A DNA stretch of 64,000 nucleotides from Halodesulfurarchaeum sp. Its GTDB lineage: Archaea > Halobacteriota > Halobacteria > Halobacteriales > Halobacteriaceae. A model generated the notes under the pieces. The model made no database searches and was not told the DNA's origin. It saw only the letters and a list, made by a program, of their open reading frames with translations. Both the position numbers and the translations under genes were made by a program. Of this stretch, positions 16,246-18,620 are shown piece after piece. Location: assembly GCA_034520565.1 (NCBI GenBank), contig JAXHNL010000002.1:1440001-1504000 (forward strand), read 5' to 3'. Position 1 is the first letter of the stretch, and every line of letters begins with the position of its first letter.

Positions 16246-17259
16246 TCACGATTCGTCGAGAAGTGAGTAAATATTCGCCTCGTAGACCGCTCGTACCCGA
16301 TCGCCCCAGTTGTGCGTGTAGGTATCGATAACGTCCGTCGCGACGTCCCCTCTGAGATACTTGACGATGCCCCGATCCCCCGTCCGATCCCGGAGATGCG
16401 TGGTGAAAAAGTGACGGAAGTAGTGGGGGGTGACGTTTTCTCCGGCCCCAGCTCCGGATTCGTACCACCCTCGGTCTCGAGCCCGGGACGTAACCAGATG
16501 GTGGACGTCGTTTCCCGTGAGACGCGTTCCCCAGTTACGTTCTGTGCTGGTAAATAGTGGCGAAGCTGGTGAGGTCGTATCCGGGCGAATCGCGAGCCAT
16601 TGGACGAGGGCGGTTCGAAGCTCATCGTCGATCGGGATGACCGTTTCGCGCTTTCGTTTGTTCGACATCTTCCGCTTTTCGCCGTTGTGTTCCTCGTTTC
16701 TGGTGGGTTCGTTCGAGACGTAGATGGTCTGTGGTCGGCCTTCCAGTTGTGGTCGGATCGGTCCTGACGGGATCGGTGTTTCGCCAAGATTGATATCTCG
16801 CAAATCGAGATTACAGGCTTCTCCCGCCCGTATACCCGTTTTTAACAGTAGTACGATGACTGCTTTCGCGAGTGGGTGGCCGACGGATCCGACGAAGGCT
16901 CTCATTTCGGGAACTGAAATGTCCCGACGGTTCGGATCCGTCGTGATTTGCTCGTCGAGTTCTTCCATTACGAGTGTCATCGGATTCTGGTCGAATATCC
17001 CGACTTCGTTCATGTACGCATAGAACCGGTGGAGGTAGGCCGCGTAACTCGCGACGGTACTTTCTGCGGCTTCATCGCGCAGCGTCGATATCCAGGCGAG
17101 ACAATCCCGGTGGGTGACTGTATCCAGTGTCGTCTCGGGGTCGAGCGAGTCTTCGAACTGGTGTAAGACGCGATCGTAGGCGTCTCGGGTGCGGTCTGAA
17201 CGGCCGTGGTAGGCCATGTCATCGAGGAAGTACTCGATTGGGTCGGTGGTTTCCGTCAT
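16246..17259 (-). CDS. XerC/D-like (XerA-type) tyrosine recombinase
   Basis: N-terminal SAM-like domain (STVASY..LHRFY); catalytic R (TGIRAGE), K (KRKRE), HYFRH, Y (DTYTH). Confidence 0.92.
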   Translation of the reverse strand: MTETTDPIEYFLDDMAYHGRSDRTRDAYDRVLHQFEDSLDPETTLDTVTHRDCLAWISTLRDEAAESTVASYAAYLHRFYAYMNEVGIFDQNPMTLVMEELDEQITTDPNRRDISVPEMRAFVGSVGHPLAKAVIVLLLKTGIRAGEACNLDLRDINLGETPIPSGPIRPQLEGRPQTIYVSNEPTRNEEHNGEKRKMSNKRKRETVIPIDDELRTALVQWLAIRPDTTSPASPLFTSTERNWGTRLTGNDVHHLVTSRARDRGWYESGAGAGENVTPHYFRHFFTTHLRDRTGDRGIVKYLRGDVATDVIDTYTHNWGDRVRAVYEANIYSLLDES

Positions 17260-17645
17260 TGCTCTTCGATGAGGGTGTACGTCCCGTTGCGGGGTTTGTG
17301 TGTAATTTTTCCCTCCTCCTGGAGTTCGATGACTGTGTTTTCGAGTTTCGACTCGAGATCGTTTGCGACCTTCTCGAACAGCTCTTCCCAGGTGAGGTCG
17401 CCATTTGTCTCGAGTGTTTGCAACACCGTTTCCCGGACGTTACCCCTGGGGTTTGACCCTGGAGAATCGGGTTCGTCGGGCTCGGTATCGCCGAACCCCC
17501 GGCGGCCGGCCTGCACCATCGTTCGAACGAACTCCGACTGGCTCATTTCGAGTTCGTCCGCGTCTGTCTCCCATTCTTCTTTCTGGAACGCGGGAACGTA
17601 GGTGGTTATGGCAGCCCGGTCGGTCTCTTTGCCAGATTCACTCAT
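17256..17645 (-). CDS. DUF5805-type protein (RHH-like N-terminus, wHTH-like C-terminus)
   Basis: TTYVPAFQKEEWETDADELEMSQSEFVRTMVQAGRRGF; 4-nt overlap with the recombinase gene. Confidence 0.8.
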   Translation of the reverse strand: MSESGKETDRAAITTYVPAFQKEEWETDADELEMSQSEFVRTMVQAGRRGFGDTEPDEPDSPGSNPRGNVRETVLQTLETNGDLTWEELFEKVANDLESKLENTVIELQEEGKITHKPRNGTYTLIEEQ

Positions 17646-17669
17646 ACAGACGATTAGGACGACGTTCCT

Positions 17670-17676
17670 CTTAAAA
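17670..17676 (-). promoter_or_regulatory. TATA box of the leaderless DUF5805-xer operon
   Basis: TTTTAAG on the minus strand 25-31 nt upstream of the ATG at 17645. Confidence 0.55.
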
Positions 17677-17684
17677 CTTGTACC

Positions 17685-17712
17685 TGTTAAAATAAACTAT
17701 CTTATTTGGATA
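17685..17712. other. Candidate dif-like Xer recombination site (11-6-11)
   Basis: TGTTAAAATAA ACTATC TTATTTGGATA: inverted arms with the ATAA-N6-TTAT core. Confidence 0.6.
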
Positions 17713-18571
17713 TACACTGTTGAAAATCGGCGGAATATTAGGTAATATTTTCTTTAATGCATTTCTCTCGTTACGAACACGTTGAATGTGTAAATAAAAA
17801 TTTCCCGAATTTGGATTTTTCATTTTGTTCGGGCGGGCTGCCAGAATTGAAAATTTGGCGTTGCGCTTTGCTGGTCCCCGCTGAAAAGATTCGATCGGTT
17901 CAAACGGCATGTATTGTCTGGATTGGACGGGCAGTAATATACTCTGTCAAATACGCCAGCTGATGTTACTTCTTTACTGAACCGCAATGGAGTGGCTTCC
18001 TTCTTGATGCGGTGGTTGTTTTTGTGGCATATACATACGTTAGAAGCTTGGTTCGATTTGATCCGAAGTGATTTTTCAGTTTGTTTCACTTTCCGCTGGT
18101 GGTGTGGTTTTCGGCTCGATCGTTCGAAATCAGGAAGTTCGATTTCGTGGTAAGTGATGTGGAAAGGACCGGAAATTCGTATCTCCGGCCATACGAGGCA
18201 GAGGAACACGACGTCAGCGTTTCATTTGTGGCTGGGCTGCATACTGGCCGAAATACGAAACATAAACTGTATGCTGCAATACAATTATGGGGGGACGGGT
18301 TGTTTGTCAGATGAATGGGTTCCGTCCACCACGATTGCAAAACTTGCAGTACCTTCGGCATTTCGCCATCACCTGCTGAATTGTCGCTGGCATAGTGGGT
18401 TGTCGGAGATGTTCATGCCACGGTTTTAAAAGCGAAAATTGCGAATCGAGGCTTCTCGTCATCCGAGATCCCTCCTATATATAATGGAAATAATTTAGTG
18501 CTGCTATCTCATTTAACAGTATAAACGTGGCGTTGAGGCCCGATATCCGCATTTTAGGCGCAATCACGCCA

Positions 18572-18581
18572 TCTATATAGA
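18572..18581. promoter_or_regulatory. Palindromic TCTATATAGA upstream of phoU (PHO-box-like or promoter element)
   Basis: Perfect 10-bp palindrome ~40 nt before the ATG; related CTATATATA at 18475-18483. Confidence 0.4.
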
Positions 18582-18620
18582 AATCGATTAGTTTACAGGT
18601 AATCGACGTTCAGTGGTCAT

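What the first reader, a model, noticed from the sequence alone, without database searches (positions are those of the whole stretch)
16246..17712. Candidate self-contained haloarchaeal Xer/dif module: dif-like site + DUF5805 + Xer recombinase
Seen: the 28-bp sequence TGTTAAAATAA-ACTATC-TTATTTGGATA (17685-17712) has 11-bp arms whose inner 6 bp (AAATAA/TTATTT) are perfectly inverted around a 6-bp asymmetric spacer. It lies 40 nt upstream of a translationally coupled DUF5805-recombinase operon, just beyond its TATA box. No viral, plasmid or att cargo flanks it; the neighbours are acd and phoU. Established: ATAA-N6-TTAT is the core of E. coli and Thermococcales dif, and the single-recombinase XerS/difSL system carries its site just upstream of the recombinase gene. 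Inference: this is a haloarchaeal chromosome-dimer resolution site with its cognate recombinase, and binding there may also autoregulate the operon. I am not aware of a characterised haloarchaeal dif.
Basis: partly seen in the sequence, partly recalled or inferred. Interest (0 to 1): 0.85.

Follow-up and report, generated by a model that had tools for sequence, protein, structure and literature searches.

The report
Haloarchaeal Xer recombinase with its dif-like site
A 28-base palindrome just upstream of a conserved two-gene recombinase operon is most likely the site where salt-loving archaea untangle joined chromosome copies, and viruses appear to insert at that same site.

Summary
The 28-mer at 17685-17712 ends 39 nt upstream of a 4-nt-overlapping DUF5805 / tyrosine-recombinase operon, next to a TATA-like box.

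It is not chance. ATAA-N6-TTAT lies 25-90 nt upstream of the DUF5805 start in 82 of 104 distinct haloarchaeal loci. Background is 14 hits in 587 kb. Some lineages carry compensatory arm variants.

The dif reading is the best supported, for four reasons:
- The geometry is 11-6-11, and 18 of 28 bases match the Thermococcus kodakarensis dif.
- The strict motif is single-copy in this genome.
- The site lies 136-179 degrees from the main Orc1 gene in 20 of 21 chromosomes. Control genes also keep their distance, so this is weaker than it looks.
- In at least six species foreign DNA of 2-18 kb sits between an intact site and a right-arm-only remnant at the promoter. One insert is a pleolipovirus-like provirus with no integrase.

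The idea is not wholly new. A 2025 paper already calls this element a "putative dif" in Haloferax volcanii and Halobacterium salinarum, without biochemistry.

No binding or cleavage is shown. An operator role for DUF5805 (ribbon-helix-helix plus winged-helix-like) is not excluded and may coexist. Confidence is about 0.65.

The parts
17685..17712 (.). 28-bp 11-6-11 dif-like core site. In operon orientation it reads TATCCAAATAA-GATAGT-TTATTTTAACA.
   Evidence: It is conserved at 38-48 nt from the DUF5805 start in 82 of 104 loci. By my hand count, 18 of 28 bases match the T. kodakarensis dif printed in PMC11840125.
17646..17684 (-). Promoter region. A TATA-like TTTTAAG lies at 17670-17676, 25-31 nt before the ATG, so the transcript is probably leaderless or has a short leader.
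   Evidence: A TATA-like element (TTTAAG, TTGAAG or TTGATG) lies at the same offset in the orthologous loci. The transcription start is inferred, not measured.
17256..17645 (-). DUF5805 protein, 129 aa. It has an N-terminal ribbon-helix-helix-like part, an acidic linker and a C-terminal two-helix plus hairpin (winged-helix-like) domain.
   Evidence: PF19121 at 64.5 bits. AlphaFold2 model, mean pLDDT 78. Weak sub-threshold Pfam matches to NikA-like (19 of 25 members) and MCM4_WHD (15 of 25). It sits directly upstream of the recombinase in all 110 loci examined: 30 of 30 and 80 of 80.
16246..17259 (-). Xer-like tyrosine recombinase, 337 aa, with a family-specific insert of about 45 aa in the catalytic domain.
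   Evidence: PF00589 and PF02899. Best NCBIfam model is recomb_XerA_Arch at 115 bits, below the 220-bit cut-off. Best solved relative is P. abyssi XerA 4a8e, E = 2.4e-8. R144, H279, R282 and Y314 are invariant in 23 orthologues.
17713..18620 (.). Non-coding, low-GC spacer of about 0.9 kb on the distal side of the site.
   Evidence: GC is 41-49%. The spacer is about 1 kb in five species of the genus, but its sequence is not conserved apart from the site and the two promoters. No Rfam family reached a gathering score. No blastn match in the phage collection. Whether it belongs to the system is not known.

Best explanation
The 28-mer is the core recombination site, of dif type, of the adjacent haloarchaeal Xer-like recombinase.

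Proposed mechanism (all steps in this paragraph are inferred). One recombinase monomer binds each 11-bp arm. Two sites on a chromosome dimer synapse. The strands are exchanged at the edges of the 6-bp spacer, which turns the dimer into two monomers.

The site, the small DUF5805 protein and the recombinase form one module that is inherited together.

The site abuts the promoter elements at a fixed distance. Occupancy of the site therefore probably also tunes transcription of the operon (inferred).

DUF5805 is most likely a DNA-binding accessory or regulatory partner of the recombinase (inferred, weakly supported).

Mobile elements, including a virus that has no integrase, appear to use the same site for integration.
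For: 1. Conservation.
- ATAA-N6-TTAT lies 25-90 nt upstream of the DUF5805 start in 82 of 104 distinct loci. Background is 14 hits in 587,313 nt of the same loci.
- In five species of the genus it is the best conserved block of an otherwise diverged 1-kb spacer, and the 6-bp centre is conserved too.
- The arms co-vary: CTTA..TAAG in L027 and L028, ATCA..TGAT in L037.

2. Geometry.
- The layout is 11-6-11. Outer arm positions are also palindromic, for example 10 of 11 in L026.
- 18 of 28 bases match the XerA-bound T. kodakarensis dif (sequence; hand count).

3. Recombinase.
- Relatives were found in 516 stretches of GTDB species genomes.
- Identity is 57-84% across the order.
- The DUF5805 partner was found in 18 of 18 high-quality relatives, mostly as a single copy.
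- XerA-like paralogues that score better are patchy.

4. Copy number. The strict motif occurs once in this genome. The relaxed pattern gives about 1-2 hits per relative genome, one of them at this locus.

5. Position. The site lies 136-179 degrees from the best-scoring Orc1 gene in 20 of 21 chromosomes, median 162 degrees. In this incomplete genome it is 154-173 degrees, depending on the chromosome length assumed.

6. Traces of recombination.
- In 10 of 104 loci the intact site is displaced by 124 nt to 18.2 kb, and only a right-arm remnant is left at the promoter.
- In Halosimplex aquaticum the 14.7-kb insert is a pleolipovirus-like provirus. No PF00589 match was found inside it at E <= 0.1.
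- In Halorientalis brevis the junctions fit a crossover inside the spacer.

7. Literature. PMC11840125 (passages read) reports the same kind of element as a putative dif next to Smc-dependent boundaries.
Against: - No biochemical or genetic test exists.
- The fixed 38-48 nt spacing to the start codon across the class is what a regulatory site needs. A pure dif does not need it.
- The recombinase misses the XerA equivalog cut-off. Its His/Trp-III position is an invariant Asp305.
- The antipodal position is weaker evidence than its count suggests, because control genes also keep their distance from Orc1. ArgRS has a median of 39 degrees and is at or above 135 degrees in 1 of 21. SecY has a median of 104 degrees and is at or above 135 degrees in 3 of 21. 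One genome, Halorussus aquaticus, has the site at 46 degrees.
- The 18.2-kb insert in H. brevis carries its own 208-aa integrase, so host Xer is not needed to explain that case.
- Three free alphapleolipoviruses (HHPV-1, HHPV-2, HRPV-1) carry no TAA-N6-TTA site.
- Four loci (L087 at the promoter, L098, L125, L127 at the promoter) have no recognisable site there. For L098 and L125 no site was found nearby either.
- The site proposed on pHV3 in the 2025 paper is a TAA-N8-TTA repeat that does not resemble the chromosomal site.
Confidence: 0.65

Rival explanations
1. The palindrome is only an operator. A DUF5805 dimer or tetramer binds it through its ribbon-helix-helix part and autoregulates the operon. 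The recombinase acts elsewhere or on mobile elements.
For: - The distance to the TATA box and start codon is fixed across the class.
- DUF5805 has RHH-like and winged-helix-like parts.
- Palindromes with co-varying arms also fit a dimeric regulator.
- Similar GATAAG-N4-CTTATC palindromes lie upstream of secF in four genomes, so such palindromes can be ordinary promoter elements.
Against: - The site is centred about 53 nt upstream of the start, outside the TATA/BRE region. This is unusual for an archaeal repressor (general knowledge).
- In L027 and L037 the arms changed, yet the RHH strand (AVRTYVP) is the same as in species with the usual site. The L027 and L028 recombinases alone carry S67G and S74G in a conserved N-domain helix.
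- In about 10 loci the intact site has moved away from the promoter and has still been kept intact. An operator would not be expected to survive that.
- Insertions join at the spacer.
- In G021 the secF palindrome did not change together with the DUF5805 site.
Confidence: 0.17
2. The site is an attachment site for mobile elements, and the operon is a domesticated integrase module. It mediates integration, excision or inversion at this hot spot, not chromosome dimer resolution.
For: - Inserts of 2-18 kb lie at the site in six or more species, including a provirus.
- Homologous flank segments lie in opposite orientation in different Halosimplex species, and G044 has two inverted copies 2.4 kb apart.
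- Haloarchaea are highly polyploid and have many other tyrosine recombinases.
Against: - 94 of 104 loci show no insert. Even so, the module is kept, mostly as one copy, with 57-84% identity.
- Its position opposite Orc1 has no obvious meaning for an attachment site.
- Bacterial dif sites are exploited by mobile elements in the same way (review PMC5357621, passages read). The two roles therefore do not exclude each other.
Confidence: 0.13
3. The motif is a chance AT-rich palindrome in an AT-rich spacer.
For: The surrounding 0.9 kb is AT-rich. A weak look-alike occurs in another AT-rich stretch of this genome, at C1:5215.
Against: Conservation in 82 of 104 loci against a background of about 0.001 per window. 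The strict motif occurs once in the genome.
Confidence: 0.01

Closest known systems
Archaeal XerA/dif (Pyrococcus abyssi, Thermococcus kodakarensis, Thermoplasma acidophilum)
   Same: - A single tyrosine recombinase with a SAM-like N-domain.
- A 28-bp 11-6-11 site with an ATAA-N6-TTAT core.
- A single copy, far from the origin.
- No FtsK.
- A low-GC intergenic setting. PMC11840125 describes a 1.9-kb intergenic region around the T. kodakarensis dif.
   Different: - The recombinase is divergent: 115 bits against a 220-bit cut-off, and E = 2.4e-8 to 4a8e.
- It has an insert of about 45 aa and Asp at the His/Trp-III position.
- In Thermococcales dif is not next to xerA (PMC2958812). Here it lies at the gene's own promoter.
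- A co-transcribed DUF5805 partner is present, for which no paper was found.
XerS/difSL of streptococci and lactococci, and XerH/difH of epsilon-proteobacteria
   Same: A single recombinase genetically linked to its site, forming one module (review PMC5357621).
   Different: - difSL has an 11-bp centre. Here the centre is 6 bp.
- The XerS model scores 47.5 bits against a 267-bit cut-off.
- Those systems depend on FtsK.
- They have no DUF5805-like partner.
Putative dif of Haloferax volcanii and Halobacterium salinarum (PMC11840125, 2025)
   Same: It is described as lying upstream of an operon that contains a xerA homologue. Haloferax species in my set have the site upstream of DUF5805-xer. It is therefore very probably the same element.
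   Different: That paper found it by a TAA-N(6-8)-TTA scan near Smc boundaries in two species and did not test it. I could not see its figures or supplements, so I did not verify identity of the locus by coordinates.
IMEX: mobile elements that exploit Xer at dif (CTX phage, TLC, gonococcal island)
   Same: An element without an integrase is inserted at the site. One intact site and one degenerate site flank it.
   Different: The host is archaeal and the element is pleolipovirus-like. My searches listed no archaeal case. Integration by the host recombinase is inferred only.

Membership tests
Xer/dif chromosome dimer resolution (archaeal XerA type) | Tyrosine recombinase with the catalytic R-K-H-R-[H/W]-Y set | tested here: inconclusive
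   R144, H279, R282 and Y314 are invariant in 23 orthologues. The position aligned with the His of P. abyssi XerA is an invariant Asp305. The catalytic Lys was not assigned.
Xer/dif chromosome dimer resolution (archaeal XerA type) | Reaches the curated XerA equivalog score (NF040815) | tested here: not met
   115.2 bits against a 220-bit cut-off. It is still the best-scoring NCBIfam model for this protein.
Xer/dif chromosome dimer resolution (archaeal XerA type) | 28-bp site: two 11-bp inverted arms around a 6-bp spacer | tested here: met
Xer/dif chromosome dimer resolution (archaeal XerA type) | One site per chromosome | tested here: met
   The strict motif occurs once in 1.86 Mb. The relaxed pattern gives 0-3 hits per strand in most of 41 genomes, one of them at the locus, with similar control counts. 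The genome is only 81% complete.
Xer/dif chromosome dimer resolution (archaeal XerA type) | Located in the region opposite the replication origin | tested here: met
   At or above 136 degrees from the best Orc1 gene in 20 of 21 chromosomes. Caveats: origins were inferred from Orc1 genes only, many haloarchaea have several origins, and control genes also keep their distance.
Xer/dif chromosome dimer resolution (archaeal XerA type) | The recombinase binds, cleaves and recombines the site and resolves dimers | not testable with these tools
   Only indirect traces are available: inserts that join at the site.
XerS/difSL-type linked module | Site immediately beside the recombinase gene | tested here: met
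   The site is 39 nt upstream of the operon. The link is conserved.
XerS/difSL-type linked module | XerS orthology and an 11-bp central region | tested here: not met
   NF003462 scores 47.5 bits against 267. The spacer is 6 bp.
Ribbon-helix-helix autoregulator with operator | RHH domain in the upstream protein | tested here: inconclusive
   Only sub-threshold matches: NikA-like in 19 of 25 members (best E = 0.0031) and RHH_1 in 4 of 25. The model shows two helices at residues 19-31 and 36-49. Foldseek found no match at E <= 0.001; the top row is a VapB antitoxin at E = 0.21.
Ribbon-helix-helix autoregulator with operator | Operator placed at the protein's own promoter | tested here: met
   The site lies at a fixed 38-48 nt from the start codon, next to the TATA-like box. 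Binding was not tested.
IMEX (element exploiting host Xer) | Integrated element without an integrase, flanked by an intact and a degenerate site. This concerns relatives, not this window. | tested here: met
   Halosimplex aquaticum has a 14.7-kb pleolipovirus-like insert. The only PF00589 match in the region is the host operon. There is no such insert in the window.

The most novel reading that the evidence does not exclude
Halobacteria resolve chromosome dimers with a self-contained three-part module: a dif-like site, an RHH/winged-helix partner (DUF5805) and a divergent Xer with Asp in place of His/Trp-III. In this reading DUF5805 takes the controlling role that FtsK has in bacteria. Pleolipovirus-like elements without an integrase hijack the module, which would be the first archaeal counterpart of the bacterial IMEX elements.
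Probability: 0.35. Interest if true: 0.75.

Novelty: new member of a known kind. Interest (0 to 1): 0.6.

Why it matters
Haloarchaea are the main genetic models for archaeal chromosome biology. They are polyploid, have several replicons and lack FtsK.

How they resolve chromosome dimers has not been tested. The one published mention I found is an untested "putative dif" in two species.

This analysis gives a testable site, a testable recombinase and an unstudied partner protein, all conserved across the class. It also points to natural insertions, including a provirus without an integrase, that could serve as ready-made recombination substrates.

If confirmed, this would extend the phenomenon of viruses exploiting host Xer to archaea.

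Tried and rejected
- Rfam scan of the intergenic region: only a sub-threshold CRISPR-repeat row at E = 0.55.
- blastn of the AT-rich spacer against phages: no match.
- The site proposed on pHV3 in PMC11840125: located through the neighbouring sequence printed in the paper. It is a TAA-N8-TTA repeat, unlike the chromosomal site, so I did not count it as support.
- Extra pattern hits on small replicons (G010:C3, G019:C2, and this genome's C1:5215): weak arm similarity and a chance level I cannot exclude, so not used.
- G004 contigs C6 and C15 overlap by 55 nt across the site. This may be only an assembly break, so not used.
- Foldseek of the DUF5805 model: no match at E <= 0.001.
- Complex prediction of the recombinase with DUF5805: verdict "weak support". 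Score 0.49, best of 3 controls 0.26. In the calibration the mark was reached by 58 of 80 solved complexes and 2 of 110 mismatched pairs, but at 0.60 or under by only 7 of those 80 and by both mismatches that passed. The runs agree in at least 76% of contacts and the partner's pLDDT is at least 72. I do not count this as evidence.
- The 479-aa DUF5805-recombinase reading frame in one genome (L025 = L122) looks like a frameshift near the end of DUF5805. I did not count it as a fusion.
- Free HHPV-1, HHPV-2 and HRPV-1 were scanned for an attP-like site: none found.
- I could not fully reconstruct the order of insertions and inversions in Halosimplex.
- Supplements and figures of the papers were not available. 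Supplementary Fig. 5 of PMC11840125 and the supplementary tables of PMC2958812 may bear on the identity of the published sites.
Full report
**1. The observation**

The 28-mer TGTTAAAATAA-ACTATC-TTATTTGGATA stands at 17685-17712. On the minus strand a 129-aa DUF5805 protein (17256-17645; PF19121, 64.5 bits) is followed by a 337-aa tyrosine recombinase (16246-17259; PF00589 and Phage_int_SAM_1). The two ORFs overlap by 4 nt.

The site ends 39 nt before the DUF5805 ATG. A TATA-like TTTTAAG lies 25-31 nt before the ATG. The neighbours are an ADP-forming acetyl-CoA-synthetase-type gene and a PhoU-domain gene. About 0.9 kb of non-coding DNA at 41-49% GC separates the site from phoU.

AAATAA-N6-TTATTT occurs once in the 1.86-Mb, 81%-complete genome. 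The reversed control pattern occurs 0 times.

**2. Conservation**

The closest named relatives are Halodesulfurarchaeum (record titles).

- DUF5805 was found in 35 of 41 related genomes and in 18 of 18 high-quality ones, mostly once per genome.
- In all 30 loci fetched there, the recombinase lies directly downstream at 57-84% identity.
- A scan of GTDB species genomes found 516 stretches encoding a relative of the recombinase. All 80 that were kept have DUF5805 directly upstream.
- After I removed 5 duplicate loci and 1 locus cut off by a contig end, ATAA-N6-TTAT lies 25-90 nt upstream of the DUF5805 start in 82 of 104 loci. The site ends 38-48 nt from the start codon, most often 41-42 nt.
- The rest of the same loci holds 14 such patterns in 587,313 nt.

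The 22 loci without the strict pattern fall into three groups:

- Ten have a near-variant at the same place, or a start codon that I placed wrongly. These include variants with changes on both arms: CTTA..TAAG in L027 and L028, and ATCA..TGAT in L037.
- Eight have an intact site displaced upstream.
- Four were unresolved at first. For two of them a displaced site was then found.

Within the genus, the site with its 6-bp centre is the best conserved block of a spacer of about 1 kb that has otherwise diverged.

**3. The recombinase**

- The best NCBIfam model is recomb_XerA_Arch, at 115 bits against a cut-off of 220.
- The best solved relative is P. abyssi XerA, E = 2.4e-8.
- R144, H279, R282 and Y314 are invariant. 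The position aligned with the third His of XerA is an invariant Asp305. A stretch of about 45 aa is inserted in the catalytic domain.
- This genome has three other PF00589 matches over the cut-off, one of them broken by a stop codon.
- XerA-like genes that score higher (up to 200 bits) occur in only some relatives. No match at all reached the cut-off in any of the 41 genomes.

The DUF5805-linked enzyme is therefore the one conserved candidate for a housekeeping role.

**4. Dif or operator: position on the chromosome**

I took the best-scoring Orc1/Cdc6 gene (113-120 bits) as a marker of the main origin. On that basis the site lies 136-179 degrees away in 20 of 21 chromosomes, median 162 degrees. 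The exception is Halorussus aquaticus at 46 degrees. In this incomplete genome the figure is 154-173 degrees, depending on the length assumed.

The controls temper this. ArgRS stays near Orc1 (median 39 degrees). SecY has a median of 104 degrees. Distance from the origin is therefore conserved in general in these genomes, and the 21 values are far from independent. The position fits a dif but is not strong proof.

**5. Dif or operator: traces of recombination**

In four Halosimplex species the promoter keeps only a right-arm remnant. An exact copy of the site found in sister species lies elsewhere:

- 2.2 kb upstream in one species
- 14.7 kb upstream in a second
- 2.6 kb upstream in a third, which also has a second, inverted copy at -128
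- 124 nt upstream and inverted in the fourth

Salinirarus marinus has the site 3.26 kb upstream. Halorientalis brevis has it 18.2 kb upstream.

The 14.7-kb insert of H. aquaticum encodes:

- a pleolipovirus-type Rep (phrog_10542 at 787 bits; 33-35% identity to the Rep proteins of Humcor2, HHPV-1 and HHPV-2)
- a spike protein
- an NTPase
- smaller conserved proteins
- an IS66 transposase

In the 19.5 kb examined, the only PF00589 match at E <= 0.1 is the host operon itself.

In H. brevis the distal junction carries the host-type left arm with a new right arm. The promoter junction keeps the host-type right arm, with homology starting inside the spacer. This is what a crossover in the central region would leave. 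However, that element has its own 208-aa integrase.

Flank segments that are homologous between Halosimplex species lie in opposite orientation next to the site. I could not reconstruct the order of events.

An operator would not be expected to be kept intact after being moved away from its promoter, nor to be the joint of insertions. I therefore give the recombination-site reading the larger share.

**6. Points for the operator reading**

The spacing to the promoter is rigid across the class.

DUF5805 looks like a DNA-binding protein:

- The AlphaFold2 model (mean pLDDT 78) has two helices typical of a ribbon-helix-helix, a disordered acidic linker, and two helices plus a hairpin.
- The Pfam matches to NikA-like, RHH_1 and winged-helix families are all below threshold.
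- Foldseek found nothing at E <= 0.001.

In L027 and L037 the arms changed but the RHH strand did not. The L027 and L028 recombinases alone carry S67G and S74G in a conserved N-domain helix. These rest on one or two events only.

Both roles may coexist.

**7. What is in print**

- DUF5805: 0 papers in the library.
- PMC2958812 (passages read) predicts dif in Thermococcales, Methanosphaera and Sulfolobales, states that dif is not next to xerA in Thermococcales, and does not mention Halobacteria.
- The review PMC8371274 (section 20 and passages read) names no haloarchaeal dif.
- PMC13532300 (passages read) reports that known Xer sites were not consistently found on haloarchaeal plasmids.
- The review PMC5357621 (passages read) says that XerS and XerH are linked to their sites and that some archaea have a xerA/dif module.
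- Searches for pleolipovirus with Xer/dif and for IMEX in archaea listed no archaeal case. PMC7911831 (passages read) describes pleolipoviral proviruses as integrating at tRNA genes with their own integrases.

**8. Verdict**

This window holds an ordinary, intact member of a module that is conserved across the Halobacteria. The module is very probably the haloarchaeal Xer/dif system. The idea has been in print as a "putative dif" since 2025, so for this window the finding is a new member of a known kind.

Relative to what I could find in print, the following are new:

- conservation of the site across the class, with compensatory arm variants
- the obligatory DUF5805 partner
- the Asp at the His/Trp-III position
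- the position opposite Orc1
- the insertions at the site, including a provirus without an integrase

Noticed in passing
L041 (G040:C4), L042 (G021:C1), L043 (G014:C53), L044 (G033:C9); also G049:C1:577154: A GATAAG-N4-CTTAT(C/T) palindrome lies 20-40 nt upstream of a secF-secD-like gene pair in four or five haloarchaeal genomes. In G021 it did not change when the DUF5805 site did, so a different factor probably reads it.
   Followed up: partly
window 17713-18620: The non-coding, low-GC spacer beside the site is about 1 kb long in five species of the genus, but its sequence is not conserved. It recalls the low-GC intergenic region around the T. kodakarensis dif that forms an SMC boundary (PMC11840125).
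   Followed up: partly
G000:C2:709723-710292 (L004): A short catalytic-domain-only integrase gene broken by a TAG stop. Its N-terminal sequence resembles that of the 208-aa integrase in the Halorientalis brevis insert.
   Followed up: no
G010:C3:7679 (L048) and G019:C2:96721 (L047): Two small Orc1-bearing replicons from different genera each carry an intergenic ATAA-N6-TTATTATT sequence. These could be plasmid Xer sites or chance matches.
   Followed up: partly
G004:C6:1-55 and G004:C15:1-55 (L039, L040): Two contigs of a metagenome-assembled genome end in the same 55 nt, which contain the site. This may be an assembly-graph branch at the site.
   Followed up: partly
L095, 689 and 1867 nt upstream of the DUF5805 start: Two identical 28-mers with an ATAA-N6-TTAT core lie 1.18 kb apart in direct orientation upstream of an operon whose own site is a CTAA variant.
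   Followed up: no
L025 = L122 (Halobacteriaceae archaeon GCM10025711): The DUF5805 reading frame runs on into the recombinase, giving 479 aa. The end of DUF5805 is replaced by a Ser/Thr/Ala-rich stretch, which looks like a frameshift.
   Followed up: partly
G001:C1:905699-906550 and other relatives: A second XerA-like gene that scores higher (about 200 bits on NF040815) is present in only some relatives. In G001 it lies 38 kb from the DUF5805 locus. It is possibly carried by a mobile element.
   Followed up: no
L045 (G005:C74): A 6.4-kb AT-rich contig with small virus-like ORFs, including one that by my reading of its sequence looks like a dCMP deaminase, in a genome of the same genus. It contains a sequence whose right arm equals the window site's right arm in 11 of 11 positions, but inside an ORF.
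   Followed up: no
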